Of a stretch of 64,000 nt of DNA, positions 14,374 through 16,356 are shown piece after piece. The position numbers and the translations under genes are program-made. The stretch's first letter is position 1; each line of letters opens with the position of its first letter. The notes below the pieces were generated by a model. It was not told the origin of the DNA, searched no databases, and saw only the letters and a list, made by a program, of their open reading frames with translations. This DNA comes from Escherichia phage JN01: the sequence record MN882542; one strand, 5' to 3'.

Positions 14374-14616
14374 ATGCAAACATTAATCGTCGTTGAACAT
14401 GAAAATTCCAATAGCATTGAGTTTGTAAGGGTTCCCACTATAGATACCCACATTTTCTTGAAAGTAGGCTGGGAATGTGACCCAATAAGAGTAGAAAAAT
14501 TTATTGGTCATTACTTTGGTGGAAGACAACTTAAAAGTGTTAATTTTGAGACAATGTTACCAGAAAACTCAGAAACAAATAATAATGTTTACCTCCTTAC
14601 AAGGATTAGACAATGA
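14374..14616 (+). CDS. hypothetical protein embedded in the tRNA array
   Basis: 80 aa ORF with ATG start and AAGAG upstream. Confidence 0.45.
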   Translation: MQTLIVVEHENSNSIEFVRVPTIDTHIFLKVGWECDPIRVEKFIGHYFGGRQLKSVNFETMLPENSETNNNVYLLTRIRQ

Positions 14617-15170
14617 GATATTTGAAGTATGTTTCATGGATTTTCTTAGCTTTGCTAGAGCCATTTGCAGCAATCTTAGCAGTCATCTTAGCACCTTTTG
14701 TAGTTCTATTCTACAGTGAGAAGAGAGGACACTTACCTTTCGGCTTCAGATGGATGGAAACATATGACAACCCAATTGATGGTGATAAAGGTCATGTCGA
14801 ACGATGGGCTAAGATTAGAAAGATTGGTAAGCTTGGTATCTATATGCAGAGAGTTGGTTGGCTCTGGAGAAACAAAGCTTATAACTTCTCTTACCATGTG
14901 TTAGGAAGAGATGTAAAAGATGTTACTAAGTGGAAAGGTAATATCAATGTAAGTTCTAACCCTGAAGATAATCAGACAGGTTATCTCCTAATGTGGAACA
15001 GTAATGCTTGGGGATTATTCGCTTTTATCCCATCAATTAAACTCTTTGGTAAGCAATTCTACTGGAGAATTTATGTTGGATGGAAACTTAAAAGTGTTGT
15101 TCCAAAAGAAAGAGCATTCTCAAGGGAAAGAGTTATGTTGGCATTCTTTATTCATCCACTGAGAAAGTAA
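14613..15170 (+). CDS. hypothetical membrane protein (Trp-rich) embedded in the tRNA array
   Basis: 185 aa; N-terminal hydrophobic helix WIFLALLEPFAAILAVILAPFVVLF; ATGA overlap with the upstream ORF. Confidence 0.55.
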   Translation: MRYLKYVSWIFLALLEPFAAILAVILAPFVVLFYSEKRGHLPFGFRWMETYDNPIDGDKGHVERWAKIRKIGKLGIYMQRVGWLWRNKAYNFSYHVLGRDVKDVTKWKGNINVSSNPEDNQTGYLLMWNSNAWGLFAFIPSIKLFGKQFYWRIYVGWKLKSVVPKERAFSRERVMLAFFIHPLRK

Positions 15171-15178
15171 AGATTTAA

Positions 15179-15254
15179 AGGGGATTAGTTTACAAGGTTA
15201 AAACCTCGGTCTTTGAAATCGAAGAAGTTGGTTCAATTCCAACATCCCCCGCCA
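15179..15254 (+). tRNA. tRNA-Gln (anticodon TTG)
   Basis: Anticodon arm TCGGT-CTTTGAA-ATCGA; T-arm GTTGG-TTCAATT-CCAAC; CCA encoded. Confidence 0.65.
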
Positions 15255-15256
15255 AT

Positions 15257-15335
15257 GCTCCATTACTCCAATTGGCAGAGAGGCCAGACTTAAAATCTGT
15301 GTTATGTATCGGTTCGAATCCGATATGGAGTACCA
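15257..15335 (+). tRNA. tRNA with TAA anticodon (Leu-decoding), variable loop about 7-8 nt
   Basis: Acceptor GCTCCAT/ATGGAGT; anticodon loop CTTAAAA; T-arm ATCGG-TTCGAAT-CCGAT; A73; CCA encoded. Confidence 0.55.
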
Positions 15336-15340
15336 AATTT

Positions 15341-15416
15341 AGCGGTATAGCATAACTGGTAATGCAGCAGTCTCTGAAGCTGTCTTATTAAGGTTCAAAT
15401 CCTTATGCCGCTGCCA
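15341..15416 (+). tRNA. tRNA-Gln (anticodon CTG)
   Basis: Standard 76 nt geometry; D-stem GCAT/ATGC; anticodon loop CTCTGAA; CCA encoded. Confidence 0.75.
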
Positions 15417-15447
15417 CTTCTAAGGATTCTTACGAGAGCCCTTAAAT

Positions 15448-15523
15448 GTGGCCTTATCATAAATGGTAATGACCCATGCTGTGAACATGGTCTATACGGG
15501 TTCAAATCCCGTAGGTCACCCCA
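15448..15523 (+). tRNA. tRNA-His (anticodon GTG)
   Basis: D-stem TCAT/ATGA; perfect anticodon stem CCATG/CATGG with loop CTGTGAA; CCA encoded. Confidence 0.8.
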
Positions 15524-15529
15524 ATTTAT

Positions 15530-15605
15530 AGTCCAAGTAGCTTATATGGTTAAAGCGCGTGTCTGAAAAACATGAGAAGAGGGTTCAAATCCCACTGGAC
15601 TACCA
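15530..15605 (+). tRNA. tRNA-Phe (anticodon GAA)
   Basis: Anticodon arm CGTGT-CTGAAAA-ACATG; T-loop GGGTTCAAATCCC; CCA encoded. Confidence 0.65.
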
Positions 15606-15621
15606 ATTTCAAAGGTGCTTA

Positions 15622-16356
15622 ATGAAAGAGATGACAGAACAAGGTAAGGAGATTTTTAGTCTCTTAAAAACCGGTAGAGGGTTTTCTAATCCCCTTATTA
15701 CTGGTGCAGCAGTTCTCGGTGGAACCGTAGCTGCCTCTACATCACTTGTAAGCTCTATTAGCTCTGTAGCAGACCCTACAATAAAGGATAAACTTGTTGC
15801 TGCTGGACTTACAACAGTTCTGCTTAATAGCTTTACAACGAGTCTGACAAGCACTACATCAACTACTAAGACACTGACAGATTACGGTCAAAAGTCCATT
15901 GATGAGTTTTCATCACGTATGCAGGTAGCAAAAGGGTATTCCAATGTTATGGGTGCAGCAGGAGAGCAAGTTGGTTGTACACCATTTAGTGGTATTATGG
16001 GTGTTGCTACAGAGTACGGTCAAAAAGCTATTGACACAATTAACAGTACACTAGACGGTGTTAATGATGTATTAAGTGACTTACAAGATGCTATTGATAA
16101 AGGTCTTGATACTGTTTCTGATTTAGCTAACCAAGCTGTTAGCAAGATTAATGAAGGTATCTCGAAGATTACAGCTTATGCAGATGAAGTTGTGCAGATG
16201 ATTGAAGAAGAAGCTGCCCTTATTGCAGAGTACCTTAAAACGAATATCAATGGGTTCTTAGCAGGTATCTTACCAGACTGGTTTGATGATGCTTGTAAAA
16301 CTGGTGTAATTGATACTATTGCAACACCAGAAATGAAGAACGCATTACAGAAATAA
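15622..16356 (+). CDS. hypothetical Ser/Thr-rich protein with N-terminal hydrophobic segment, flanked by tRNAs
   Basis: Track start overlaps tRNA-Phe, so start moved to ATG 15622; stop abuts tRNA-Ser; hydrophobic LITGAAVLGGTVAASTSLV. Confidence 0.5.
   Translation: MKEMTEQGKEIFSLLKTGRGFSNPLITGAAVLGGTVAASTSLVSSISSVADPTIKDKLVAAGLTTVLLNSFTTSLTSTTSTTKTLTDYGQKSIDEFSSRMQVAKGYSNVMGAAGEQVGCTPFSGIMGVATEYGQKAIDTINSTLDGVNDVLSDLQDAIDKGLDTVSDLANQAVSKINEGISKITAYADEVVQMIEEEAALIAEYLKTNINGFLAGILPDWFDDACKTGVIDTIATPEMKNALQK

What the first reader, a model, noticed from the sequence alone, without database searches (positions are those of the whole stretch)
14374..16356. Protein-coding genes embedded within the tRNA array, including a Trp-rich membrane protein
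Three ORFs sit between tRNA genes (14374-14616, 14613-15170, 15622-16356). The 185 aa protein has an N-terminal transmembrane helix and an unusual density of tryptophan. The 244 aa protein is Ser/Thr-rich with a hydrophobic N-terminus and is tightly flanked by tRNA-Phe and tRNA-Ser. Genes placed inside phage tRNA arrays are often accessory cargo such as homing endonucleases or host-interaction factors.
Basis: seen in the sequence. Interest (0 to 1): 0.45.

Follow-up and report, generated by a model that had tools for sequence, protein, structure and literature searches.

The report
Known phage genes inside tRNA array
Three real, conserved but uncharacterised genes sit between the tRNA genes of a Felix O1-like phage; they were already catalogued, and the Trp-rich membrane protein may act in host-cell lysis, though this is untested.

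Summary
Three ORFs (14374-14616, 14613-15170, 15622-16356) lie between tRNA genes in a 25-tRNA array. The window is a Felixounavirus, 97.6% identical to Escherichia phage vB_EcoM_D4. All three are real genes with dN/dS of 0.06-0.32. The two larger ones are Felix O1 ORF48 and ORF49, which were RT-PCR positive.

Its "holin" label in GenBank is a topology guess. It is not a T4 T-type holin, T4-like carriers keep their own t gene, and Erwinia relatives lack it. My best reading is a lysis-module or envelope membrane protein.

The 244-aa protein is DUF7217, a soluble acidic helical bundle. It is a core gene of Ounavirinae and Ackermannviridae, not cargo and not a membrane-protein family.

The 80-aa gene is a patchy accessory gene, translationally coupled to DUF7338.

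Overall these are already-known genes whose functions remain open.

The parts
14280..14355 (+). tRNA-Arg (ACG), immediately upstream of the gene pair
   Evidence: ARAGORN; Rfam 59.8 bits. In Felix O1 the same tRNA directly precedes ORF48.
14374..14616 (+). 80-aa gene (phrog_14202). Acidic, no TM segment. Patchy accessory gene whose stop overlaps the start of the next gene (ATGA).
   Evidence: phrog_14202 E 2.7e-40, no Pfam, NCBIfam or PADLOC hit. Found in 69 phage records, all Ounavirinae. Present in 10 of 26 Felix-like loci, always intact, dN/dS 0.08-0.32. Absent from Felix O1, mio and Mushroom.
14613..15170 (+). 185-aa DUF7338 protein (Felix O1 ORF48): an N-terminal TM helix plus a Trp-rich, basic alpha/beta domain
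   Evidence: PF24027 E 4e-61, 206 bits against a cut-off of 27; phrog_2143 E 6e-80. AF2 model pLDDT 90.8, pTM 0.81. dN/dS 0.06-0.16 in 26 of 26 loci.
14631..14711 (+). Coding region of the DUF7338 transmembrane helix (about residues 7-33)
   Evidence: KD19 1.5-2.46 over windows 4-20. Helix 2-33 in the model. A TM segment is conserved in all 24 aligned homologs.
14733..14882 (+). Coding region of the most conserved DUF7338 core (residues 41-90: LPxxFxWMETYDNPIDGD...WLWRNKAY)
   Evidence: Invariant T50, D52, G57, W65, Y77, V81, W83, W85, R86, N87 and Y90 in alignment A1.
15179..15605 (+). Five tRNAs (Gln-TTG, Leu-TAA, Gln-CTG, His, Phe) separating the two larger genes
   Evidence: ARAGORN; Rfam.
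15622..16356 (+). 244-aa DUF7217 protein (Felix O1 ORF49): an acidic all-alpha long-helix bundle with two invariant Cys
   Evidence: PF23854 E 1.7e-89, 300 bits against a cut-off of 29; phrog_2114 E 1.3e-110. AF2 model pLDDT 93, pTM 0.82, all helices. Invariant C119 and C225. dN/dS 0.07-0.18.
16358..16530 (+). tRNA-Ser (GCT) and tRNA-Cys, the last tRNAs of the array. tRNA-Ser starts one base after the 244-aa stop codon.
   Evidence: ARAGORN; sequence read directly.
16571..16720 (+). Two hairpin plus T-run terminator-like sites that close the tRNA/ORF unit before the packaging genes
   Evidence: GCCCTG...CAGGGC followed by TTTTTT, read at 16571-16630. Scan hit at 16695-16712 plus T-run. These are pattern matches only.
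10728..10848 (+). Sigma-70-like promoter matches upstream of the first tRNA; candidate start of the unit
   Evidence: 10 of 12 matches at 10728 and 10819. The number of such sites in the region equals chance expectation, so this is only suggestive.
12649..13041 (+). HNH homing endonuclease inside the same tRNA array (context)
   Evidence: phrog_2255 E 1.3e-42; Pfam HNH E 0.012, below cut-off.
40294..40665 (+). Alternative, subfamily-wide holin candidate (Felix O1 gp79 equivalent): one N-terminal TM segment plus a coiled coil, directly after the tail-fibre genes
   Evidence: 25% identity, E 4e-8, to Erwinia phage Tian 'putative holin [Moogle]'. phrog_4038, function unknown. Listed as a holin candidate in PMC3185647.
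5868..6332 (-). Endolysin of this phage (context). Same family as the endolysins found next to distant DUF7338 genes.
   Evidence: phrog_7 E 2e-57. 33-45% identity to the endolysins downstream of DUF7338 in L059, L060, L064, L065, L067, L086 and L087.

Best explanation
SHOWN. The three ORFs are real, conserved genes of a Felix O1-like myovirus. They lie in the same-strand tRNA array, with 1-18 nt between each gene and its flanking tRNAs.

INFERRED (transcription). They are transcribed with the tRNAs. RNase P and 3'-end processing of the flanking tRNAs would then release short mRNAs with almost no untranslated regions.

(1) The 185-aa DUF7338 protein is a single-pass inner-membrane protein. It has a short positively charged N-terminus, one TM helix, and a roughly 150-aa Trp-rich, mostly basic alpha/beta domain of a fold not seen in solved structures. 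It spreads between phages as a single-gene cassette. In large enterobacterial myoviruses it has landed in the tRNA/hyperplastic region. In smaller, distant phages it lies between the tail-fibre genes and the lysis cassette. MOST LIKELY MECHANISM (inferred): it acts at the cell envelope as part of the lysis programme. It would be either a class-III-like holin or, more probably, an accessory that modulates hole formation or endolysin release. The conserved T-x-D...G...W-L-W-R-N-x-x-Y surface would contact a conserved envelope component or a lysis partner. I put about 0.45 on 'lysis-module protein', of which about 0.15-0.2 is for it being the sole holin of Felix O1-like phages.

(2) The 244-aa DUF7217 protein is a soluble, acidic, long-helix bundle. 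It is a core gene shared by Ounavirinae and Ackermannviridae. It is most likely a morphogenesis-associated factor or low-copy virion factor (about 0.4), not a membrane protein or mobile cargo.

(3) The 80-aa gene is a patchy Ounavirinae accessory gene. It is translationally coupled to DUF7338 and may be its partner.
For: Reality and identity:
- Coordinates and tRNAs.
- Full-length family matches.
- Window is 97.6% identical to a Felixounavirus.
- Felix O1 ORF48 and ORF49 correspond to the two larger genes.
- Both are RT-PCR positive (PMC3185647).
- dN/dS 0.06-0.32.

DUF7338 anatomy:
- TM helix and 10 Trp.
- TM segment and 9-15 Trp conserved in all 24 homologs.
- Invariant polar/aromatic core.
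- Model pLDDT 90.8.
- Large family: 853 cluster representatives, almost all stand-alone proteins of 160-200 aa.

DUF7338 mobility:
- 55-85% identical copies in Straboviridae, in rV5-like Av-05 and in Ounavirinae.
- Nucleotide similarity stops at the ORF ends.
- Copies lie in or next to same-strand tRNA arrays in these lineages.

DUF7338 lysis linkage:
- 11 of 27 non-redundant distant loci have an endolysin within about 2.6 kb downstream on the same strand.
- The endolysins come from three unrelated families: phrog_7 (7 loci), phrog_315 (2) and phrog_181 (2).
- Five loci have Rz-like spanins, and tail-fibre or tail-fibre-assembly genes lie upstream.
- In STP4-a it is 0.67 kb upstream of the endolysin.

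DUF7217:
- All-alpha model, pLDDT 93.
- Present in Ounavirinae, including Erwinia phages, and in Ackermannviridae.
- Always next to the packaging module in Ounavirinae.
- LIMEstone1 ORF129 (25.03 kDa, 2 peptides) was detected in virions; it is matched to DUF7217 by gene position and mass (PMC3296691).

80-aa gene: ATGA overlap with DUF7338; patchy distribution.
Against: No experiment assigns a function to any of the three genes.

Against a lysis role for DUF7338:
- In this window it is not next to the endolysin (5868-6332, opposite strand).
- Among large myoviruses only one lineage keeps endolysin linkage (2 of 26 loci).
- Most distant lysis cassettes also hold other small TM proteins that look like classical holins. 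DUF7338 may therefore only border the cassette, and the tail/lysis junction is a common slot for unrelated accessory genes.
- Erwinia Ounavirinae lack it entirely.
- T4-like carriers keep holin t.
- Felix O1 ORF48 was scored as maximally expressed at 5 min. That class also contains the major capsid gene, so the timing data are unreliable.
- Membrane orientation was not determined here.

Against a morphogenetic or virion role for DUF7217:
- It is absent from the Felix O1 whole-phage MS list.
- It is not labelled structural in VpaE1.
- Terminator-like hairpins separate it from the packaging operon.
- The Ackermannviridae MS signals are weak and were assigned by gene position only.

Against the co-transcription model: the promoter scan is at chance level.
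Confidence: 0.45

Rival explanations
1. DUF7338 is a superinfection-exclusion or envelope-modifying accessory ('moron') protein. In this reading, an inner-membrane-anchored periplasmic domain blocks DNA entry or the tail lysozyme of competing phages, or alters an envelope component, in the manner of T4 Imm/Sp, T5 Llp or Cor. Its position beside tail-fibre and lysis genes, or in tRNA/hyperplastic regions, would simply reflect permissive insertion sites.
For: It behaves as a single-gene cassette exchanged between unrelated lineages. It sits directly after tail-fibre or tail-fibre-assembly genes in distant phages, a typical location for such genes. It is dispensable for a whole Ounavirinae genus and is redundant with holin t in T4-likes. 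It lies in a unit with host-type promoter matches, and Felix O1 ORF48 fell in the 5-min class. Some family members sit beside nucleases or DNA polymerase, not lysis genes.
Against: There is no sequence or fold similarity to any known exclusion protein. Exclusion genes are usually patchy, yet this one is fixed in 26 of 26 Felix-like loci under strong purifying selection. Linkage to three unrelated endolysin families in 11 of 27 loci is more than a random insertion site would predict.
Confidence: 0.25
2. DUF7338 is THE class-III holin of Felix O1-like phages, as annotated for phage Mushroom and copied into other records. In this reading it has one TM segment with N-in/C-out topology, accumulates in the inner membrane and forms the lethal hole that releases the soluble endolysin.
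For: CPT_Mushroom87, labelled 'holin', is this gene. It is described as a class-III holin in PMC4392139. The single N-terminal TM segment plus a large C-terminal domain mimics T4 T. Felix O1 has no holin-lysin cassette. The gene is linked to lysis cassettes in distant phages, and in L060 it is the only TM protein of 45 aa or more upstream of the endolysin.
Confidence: 0.17
3. One reading: all three ORFs are accessory cargo carried by the tRNA array (homing endonucleases or host-interaction factors), and the 244-aa protein is a membrane protein.
For: An HNH endonuclease is present in the array. The 80-aa gene is patchy. DUF7338 is horizontally mobile. Some records call the 244-aa protein a 'putative membrane protein'.
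Against: None of the three matches any endonuclease family. DUF7217 is a core gene across two phage groups, with a fixed position next to the packaging genes in Ounavirinae. Its weakly hydrophobic segment is confined to the Felixounavirus branch, and the model is a soluble bundle. DUF7338 is fixed within Felixounavirus.
Confidence: 0.1
4. The ORFs are spurious frames lying between tRNA genes.
For: None, beyond their short intergenic setting.
Against: Full-length family matches. Hundreds of homologs. dN/dS well below 1 with intact frames. RT-PCR detection of Felix O1 ORF48 and ORF49. High-confidence folds.
Confidence: 0.01

Closest known systems
Salmonella phage Felix O1 ORF48 (NP_944875) and ORF49 (NP_944879), and their orthologs in more than 200 Felixounavirus genomes
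   Same: Same genes in the same positions in the tRNA array: 93.5% (ORF48) and about 95% (ORF49) protein identity, and the same flanking tRNAs. Both are catalogued as conserved hypothetical proteins, with ORF48 noted as a 'membrane protein'.
   Different: This window also carries the 80-aa gene upstream of the ORF48 homolog, which Felix O1 lacks. It also has fewer HNH insertions in the array.
T4 holin T (class III holin, Pfam PF11031)
   Same: General architecture: a single N-terminal TM segment followed by a large C-terminal domain. Size is similar (185 aa against about 218 aa). [quoted passage not shown]
   Different: There is no sequence relationship (no Pfam hit; HHalign 0.4%) and no fold match. 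The cytoplasmic N-terminus is much shorter (about 6 residues), and there are no Cys residues. It co-exists with a genuine T in T4-like phages. No functional data exist.
Phage inner-membrane superinfection-exclusion proteins (T4 Imm and Sp; T5 Llp; Cor)
   Same: A small phage-encoded envelope protein, non-essential for some relatives, horizontally mobile, and often encoded beside tail-fibre genes or in hyperplastic regions.
   Different: There is no sequence or structural similarity. DUF7338 is larger, is strongly conserved within Felixounavirus, and is linked to lysis cassettes in many distant phages.
Dickeya phage LIMEstone1 ORF129, an 'unknown structural protein' (Ackermannviridae DUF7217 members)
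   Same: Same Pfam family (27-29% identity over 96% of the length). Same size (about 25 kDa) and the same invariant residues, including the two Cys.
   Different: In Ackermannviridae the gene is not in a tRNA array. It lies between head genes and gp3. It was detected by virion MS there, but not in Felix O1 or VpaE1 virions.
ORFs embedded in the T4 tRNA region (tRNA.1-4, segB) and other phage tRNA-array genes
   Same: Protein genes interleaved with same-strand tRNAs in a plastic region that also holds homing endonucleases. In T4-like phage JS10 the DUF7338 gene lies right after the tRNA cluster.
   Different: T4 itself was not seen to carry DUF7338 in the listed hits. The Felix O1 array is much larger (25 tRNAs), and gene-tRNA spacing is extremely tight at 1-18 nt.

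Membership tests
Pfam DUF7338 (PF24027) / phrog_2143 | Full-length HMM match above the curated gathering score | tested here: met
   206.3 bits against a cut-off of 27, residues 1-184 on profile positions 1-176 of 180. phrog_2143 E 6.3e-80.
Pfam DUF7338 (PF24027) / phrog_2143 | N-terminal TM helix plus the conserved Trp-rich core (T-x-D...W-L-W-R-N) | tested here: met
   All invariant columns are present in the window protein. The TM segment and 9-15 Trp are present in all 24 members.
Pfam DUF7217 (PF23854) / phrog_2114 | Full-length HMM match above the curated gathering score | tested here: met
   300 bits against a cut-off of 29, residues 8-243 on profile positions 2-238 of 238. phrog_2114 E 1.3e-110.
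T4-type class III holin (Phage_holin_T, PF11031) | Sequence or profile homology to holin T | tested here: not met
   No Pfam hit even at E up to 1. HHalign of the DUF7338 profile against JS10 T gives probability 0.4%, while JS10 T itself scores 1.4e-66 on PF11031.
T4-type class III holin (Phage_holin_T, PF11031) | Fold of the periplasmic domain resembles solved T | tested here: not met
Holin (functional class, any family) | At least one TM segment in a small phage protein | tested here: met
   One strong TM helix.
Holin (functional class, any family) | Genetic linkage to endolysin and spanin genes | tested here: inconclusive
   Not linked in this window; the endolysin is at 5868-6332 on the opposite strand. 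Linked in 11 of 27 distant loci, but usually together with other small TM proteins. Only 2 of 26 large-myovirus loci are linked.
Holin (functional class, any family) | Required in every member of the phage group that lacks another holin | tested here: not met
   Absent from the complete genome of Erwinia phage Tian (Ounavirinae). An alternative candidate conserved across the subfamily exists at 40294-40665.
Holin (functional class, any family) | Forms lethal membrane holes at a programmed time and permits endolysin release | not testable with these tools
   Needs expression and complementation assays. No such experiment was found in the literature searched.
Superinfection-exclusion membrane proteins (Imm, Sp, Cor, Llp) | Homology to a known exclusion family | tested here: not met
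   No Pfam, NCBIfam or PADLOC hit and no fold match.
Superinfection-exclusion membrane proteins (Imm, Sp, Cor, Llp) | Expression protects cells from secondary infection | not testable with these tools
   Requires an infection assay.
Homing endonucleases (HNH, GIY-YIG, LAGLIDADG) | Nuclease motif or family match in the three ORFs | tested here: not met
   No such hits for any of the three ORFs. Only the neighbouring ORF 12649-13041 matches an HNH family (phrog_2255, 1.3e-42).
Virion structural protein (for DUF7217) | Detected in purified virions by mass spectrometry | tested here: inconclusive
   From the literature only. LIMEstone1 ORF129 (25.03 kDa) was detected with 2 peptides and 18% coverage, and is matched to DUF7217 by position. 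It is not in the Felix O1 shotgun list. The paper's 51-kDa 'gp49' band fits gp63 (48.9 kDa), not this 25-kDa protein. VpaE1 ORF47 is not labelled structural.
Tail tape-measure proteins (for DUF7217) | Full-length match, length scaled to the tail, and position between the tail chaperones and baseplate genes | tested here: not met
   Only weak partial PHROG hits (E 1e-5 to 1e-3) to internal helical regions. The phage's tape measure is the 742-aa ORF at 28233-30461 (Felix O1 gp67).
Integral membrane protein (for DUF7217) | Conserved TM segment | tested here: not met
   KD19 maximum of 1.62 occurs only in the Felixounavirus branch. Other members reach 0.9-1.4 at different positions. The model is a soluble helix bundle.

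The most novel reading that the evidence does not exclude
DUF7338 could define a new, widespread family of phage lysis-cassette inner-membrane proteins. It has at least 850 clusters at 50% identity and a Trp-rich domain of previously unseen fold. It could be a non-T class of single-TM holin, or a new type of holin or endolysin regulator. In large enterobacterial myoviruses it has been uncoupled from the cassette and repeatedly captured by tRNA arrays. The tight tRNA flanks might also make its expression depend on tRNA processing.
Probability: 0.35. Interest if true: 0.55.

Novelty: already known. Interest (0 to 1): 0.3.

Why it matters
Felix O1-like phages are widely used for Salmonella typing and for biocontrol, yet their holin has never been identified experimentally. 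GenBank records disagree about it. Some label this 185-aa gene 'holin', while others label the gp79-like gene. The label on the 185-aa gene is an unverified topology guess that has spread by similarity.

Two points here give concrete, cheap experiments. First, DUF7338 is not a T-type holin. Second, it is nevertheless linked to lysis cassettes with three different endolysin families in distant phages.

The case also shows that phage tRNA arrays hold two different kinds of protein gene. One kind is horizontally acquired single-gene cassettes (DUF7338, the 80-aa gene, HNH). The other is an old core gene (DUF7217) that merely abuts the array. Location inside a tRNA array is therefore not in itself evidence of 'cargo'.

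Tried and rejected
1. PDB sequence searches for both proteins gave only chance-level hits.

4. The PHROG 'GTP-binding domain' link (phrog_289) was traced to a separate SLOG-family neighbour in Ackermannviridae. That neighbour and the other Ackermannviridae neighbours have no counterpart in this window, so the lead was dropped.

5. The Felix O1 paper's statement that 'Gp49' is a structural protein looked like direct support at first. However, it refers to a 51-kDa band and a speculated sheath protein. ORF49 is 25 kDa and is absent from the shotgun MS table, while gp63 is 48.9 kDa. I therefore did not use it as evidence.

6. Small-terminase idea for DUF7217 or the 66-aa gene, prompted by Felix O1 lacking a recognised TerS: rejected for DUF7217 on background knowledge that Ackermannviridae, which also carry DUF7217, are T4-related phages with their own small terminase. 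This was not tested further.

7. tRNA-flank-mediated recombination as the transfer route for DUF7338 is not supported. Shared nucleotide similarity is confined to the ORF, and the flanking tRNAs differ between lineages.

8. NCBIfam and PADLOC gave only coiled-coil noise.

9. Literature searches for DUF7338 and DUF7217 returned no papers.

10. I initially down-weighted any lysis role, because T4-likes keep t, Erwinia relatives lack the gene, and Felix O1 expression looked early. I revised this after the neighbour analysis of distant loci.

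
Full report
OBSERVATION

ARAGORN finds 25 tRNA genes between 10875 and 16530, all on the + strand, and they flank the ORFs. Rfam confirms the flanking tRNAs.

Reading the junctions shows very tight packing:
- tRNA-Arg ends at 14355, and the 80-aa ATG is at 14374.
- The 80-aa stop overlaps the 185-aa start (ATGA at 14613-14616).
- The 185-aa stop is at 15170, and tRNA-Gln begins at 15179.
- tRNA-Phe ends at 15605, and the 244-aa ATG is at 15622, preceded by an AAAGGTG Shine-Dalgarno-like motif.
- The 244-aa stop at 16356 is one base before tRNA-Ser (16358).

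The longer GTG-initiated version of the third ORF (15559-16356) would overlap tRNA-Phe. Annotators of relatives do not use it.

The 185-aa protein has a strongly hydrophobic N-terminal helix (KD19 up to 2.46) and 10 Trp, or 5.4%. It has 29 K+R against 13 D+E. The 244-aa protein is 20% Ser+Thr and acidic. Its hydrophobic stretch is borderline (KD19 1.62) and lies at residues 25-43, not at the extreme N-terminus.

WHAT THE WINDOW IS

The region is 97.6% identical to Escherichia phage vB_EcoM_D4 and about 95% identical to Salmonella phage Felix O1. The window is therefore a Felixounavirus (Ounavirinae).

The 185-aa and 244-aa genes are Felix O1 ORF48 (NP_944875) and ORF49 (NP_944879), in the same places in the array. 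The 80-aa gene is missing from Felix O1, mio and Mushroom.

ARE THEY REAL GENES?

Yes, on four lines of evidence:
- Family matches. The 185-aa protein matches Pfam DUF7338 end to end (4e-61) and phrog_2143. The 244-aa protein matches DUF7217 (1.7e-89) and phrog_2114. The 80-aa protein matches phrog_14202 (2.7e-40).
- Selection. Against 26 Felix-like loci, pairwise dN/dS is 0.06-0.16 for DUF7338 (26 of 26 loci), 0.07-0.18 for DUF7217 (24 of 26) and 0.08-0.32 for the 80-aa gene (10 of 26). Frames are intact in every case.
- Expression. The Felix O1 genome paper reports both ORF48 and ORF49 as RT-PCR positive (PMC3185647, Supplementary Table 1).
- Folds. Both larger proteins give high-confidence structure predictions.

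THE 185-AA PROTEIN (DUF7338)

Structure. With a 24-sequence alignment, AlphaFold2 gives pLDDT 90.8 and pTM 0.81. The model has a 32-residue N-terminal helix, a cluster of short helices (residues 43-96) and a five-stranded antiparallel sheet (residues 106-184).

The alignment shows an invariant core: W9, P28, T50, D52, G57, W65, Y77, V81, W83, W85, R86, N87, Y90, G109, G123 and W157. These lie within the motifs LPxxFxWMETYDNPIDGD and WLWRNKAY. The TM helix and 9-15 Trp per protein are conserved in all members examined.

A profile search of 1.84 billion cluster representatives finds 853 relatives (375 at E of 1e-10 or better). Nearly all are stand-alone proteins of 160-200 aa. No paper mentions the family.

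Distribution and context. Besides Felixounavirus, Mooglevirus and Suspvirus, copies at 55-61% identity occur in many T4-like Straboviridae. These include JS10, STP4-a, Karamvirus/Slopekvirus-type Klebsiella and Enterobacter phages, and Cronobacter phage S13. Weaker copies occur in Aeromonas, Serratia, Vibrio, Pseudomonas and Ralstonia phages. Copies at 79-85% identity occur in rV5-like phages, namely Escherichia phage Av-05 and a relative.

In these large enterobacterial myoviruses the gene is again in or beside a same-strand tRNA array:
- after tRNA-Arg in JS10 and STP4-a;
- inside arrays of 10-19 tRNAs in L030, L031 (Av-05), L044 and L050;
- 0.6-1 kb after tRNA-Met in Karam/Slopek-type loci.

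Nucleotide similarity between this window and the rV5-like copies starts and stops at the ORF. For example, L040 3993-4543 matches window 14606-15165 at 81%. The flanking tRNAs differ. The gene therefore moves as a single-ORF cassette.

By contrast, 37 more distant loci (below 45% identity) have no same-strand tRNA within 4 kb; one has a single tRNA on the opposite strand. The tRNA linkage is thus a property of one clade of large virulent phages, not of the family.

In the distant loci, which are mostly 40-60-kb contigs, the upstream genes are often tail fibre, tail-fibre assembly or GpJ-like. I scanned the downstream genes systematically across 27 non-redundant loci (77 ORFs). They include:
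- endolysins of three unrelated families in 11 loci: phrog_7 in L059, L060, L064, L065, L067, L086 and L087; phrog_315 in L071 and L083; phrog_181 in L082 and L085;
- Rz-like spanins in five loci.

The phrog_7 endolysins are 33-45% identical to this window's own endolysin at 5868-6332. This is a genuine association with lysis cassettes.

However, most of those cassettes also contain other small TM proteins between DUF7338 and the endolysin. Examples are an 89-100-aa one-TM protein in L059, L064 and L067, and a 72-aa two-TM protein in L087. Only L060 lacks another TM protein of 45 aa or more. Among the large myoviruses, the endolysin lies within 4 kb downstream only in the STP4-a lineage.

The 'holin' label. 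Several GenBank records call this gene 'holin'. I traced the label to phage Mushroom, where CPT_Mushroom87 is this gene. [quoted passage not shown] That is a prediction. A later paper that copied the label says it still needs verification (PMC9120918).

Tests run here:
- There is no Pfam holin match.
- HHalign of the family profile against JS10's holin T gives 0.4% probability. JS10's T is itself a clear PF11031 member.
- No fold match was found.
- JS10 carries both genes.
- The complete genome of Erwinia phage Tian (Ounavirinae) has no DUF7338, even with distant family members as queries.
- Tian shares with this window another candidate, annotated 'putative holin [Citrobacter phage Moogle]'. 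Its counterpart here is 40294-40665, a 123-aa protein with one TM segment and a coiled coil. It lies directly after the tail-fibre genes and is the Felix O1 gp79 candidate.

The Felix O1 RT-PCR table places ORF48 in the '5 min' class. That class also holds the major capsid gene and gp79, so I do not rely on the timing.

Reading. DUF7338 is an envelope-acting, single-pass inner-membrane protein. Linkage to three different endolysin families favours a role in the lysis programme, as a holin-like protein or more probably an accessory. I put this at about 0.45, with about 0.15-0.2 for it being the sole holin of Felix O1-like phages. A superinfection-exclusion or envelope-modifying accessory gene is the main rival, at about 0.25. 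Orientation in the membrane, the target of the conserved surface, and any phenotype remain untested.

THE 244-AA PROTEIN (DUF7217)

Homologs fall into three groups:
- Felixounavirus, Suspvirus and Mooglevirus, at 59-98% identity;
- Erwinia and Salmonella Kolesnikvirus-type Ounavirinae, at 43-45%;
- Ackermannviridae (Kuttervirus, Limestonevirus, Taipeivirus and others), at 26-29% over 96% of the length.

In Ounavirinae the gene always sits at the 3' end of the tRNA array, just before a small ORF and the large terminase. In Ackermannviridae there are no tRNAs nearby, and it lies between head genes and the gp3 tail-completion gene. It is therefore a core gene that abuts the array, not cargo.

The weakly hydrophobic segment at residues 25-43 is confined to the Felixounavirus branch. 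The 'putative membrane protein' label in some records is therefore not supported for the family.

The 'structural protein' labels trace to Dickeya phage LIMEstone1. ORF129 of that phage (25.03 kDa, two genes from gp3) was detected in virions with 2 peptides and 18% coverage (PMC3296691). I match it to DUF7217 by gene order and mass in a near-identical phage. Sajous1 gp166 (8 spectra) is probably the same gene, again by position only (PMC10892097).

In Felix O1 the whole-phage MS list lacks gp49. The 51-kDa band the text assigns to 'gp49' fits gp63 (48.9 kDa). In VpaE1 the homolog (ORF47) is not labelled structural, whereas MS-detected proteins are.

Two terminator-like hairpins separate the gene from the packaging operon. 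I therefore rate a morphogenesis-associated or low-copy virion role at only about 0.4.

THE 80-AA GENE

It has no TM segment and no family beyond phrog_14202. It occurs in only 69 phage records, all Ounavirinae, and always directly upstream of DUF7338. The ATGA overlap suggests translational coupling and perhaps a functional partnership. This is inference only.

EXPRESSION MODEL (INFERRED)

Sigma-70-like promoter matches lie upstream of the array (10728, 10819 and 12245), and terminator-like hairpins follow tRNA-Cys (read). The number of promoter matches in the region equals chance expectation.

If the array is one transcription unit, RNase P and 3'-end processing of the flanking tRNAs would release the mRNAs. 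Their leaders would be 16-18 nt and their trailers 1-8 nt.

COMPARISON AND NOVELTY

These genes have been in GenBank since the Felix O1 sequence and are catalogued as DUF families. Their placement among the tRNAs is visible in hundreds of annotated genomes. The finding itself is therefore already known.

This analysis adds the following:
- DUF7338 is not a T-type holin, and its 'holin' label is unverified.
- It has a confidently predicted fold with no solved counterpart.
- It has entered the tRNA regions of three unrelated myovirus lineages as a single-gene cassette.
- In distant phages it is linked to lysis cassettes with three different endolysin families.
- DUF7217 is a soluble core protein, not cargo or a membrane protein.

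VERDICT

The genes are ordinary in the sense that they are known, conserved hypothetical genes. Interest is modest (0.3) and rests on the open question of the Felix O1 holin and on the uncharacterised DUF7338 family.

Noticed in passing
window 12597-12675 (+): Rfam finds a weak tRNA-like element (31.7 bits, gathering score 29) that ARAGORN did not report. The HNH endonuclease ORF (12649-13041) starts inside it, which suggests a degraded tRNA at an endonuclease insertion site. L030 has an 88%-identical stretch.
   Followed up: partly
window 11128-11204 (+): tRNA-Met (CAT), called by ARAGORN, was not recovered by Rfam at E of 0.01 or better. Its Felix O1 counterpart has a low Cove score of 28.9. 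It may be a marginal or pseudo tRNA.
   Followed up: no
window 40294-40665 (+): A 123-aa protein with one N-terminal TM segment and a long coiled coil, directly after the tail-fibre genes. It is conserved as far as Erwinia Ounavirinae and is annotated 'putative holin' there. It is a better-placed holin candidate than the tRNA-array gene, but it is equally untested.
   Followed up: partly
PMC3185647 (Felix O1 genome paper), gp49: The text and abstract list 'Gp49' as a structural protein, identified from a 51-kDa band and speculated to be the sheath. ORF49 is 244 aa (about 25 kDa) and is absent from the shotgun MS table, whereas gp63 is 48.9 kDa. This is probably a numbering slip that could mislead annotation.
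   Followed up: yes
L001 (PV390658.1, Escherichia phage vB_EcoM_P54): This 88-kb Felix O1-like genome is filed in GenBank under Straboviridae; Tevenvirinae; Tequatrovirus. That taxonomy looks wrong.
   Followed up: no
window 11539-11995 and 13365-13619 (+): There are gaps of about 460 nt and about 255 nt inside the tRNA array with no tRNA, no Rfam hit and no convincing ORF. In Felix O1 the second gap holds a small annotated ORF (ORF46).
   Followed up: no
P0033 (metagenomic protein, 172 aa): This protein has a DUF7338 N-terminal half fused to a different C-terminal domain (PF21882 in the precomputed Pfam list), and it diverges from the family after the WLWRN motif. It is either a natural chimera or an assembly artefact. 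Tail-fibre genes neighbour the family in other loci.
   Followed up: no
L059, L064, L067 (IMG/VR contigs): An HNH endonuclease gene sits immediately downstream of the SAR-like endolysin in these lysis cassettes, which carry DUF7338 at their 5' edge.
   Followed up: no
window 16755-16955 (+): A conserved 66-aa gene (phrog_4397) lies directly before the large terminase. Felix O1-like phages have no recognised small terminase (PMC3185647), so this small gene might be worth testing for that role.
   Followed up: no
L003 (phage mio) versus window 14280-14616: Phage mio lacks both tRNA-Arg(ACG) and the 80-aa gene, so DUF7338 follows tRNA-Leu directly. The tRNA and the small gene may be gained or lost together.
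   Followed up: no
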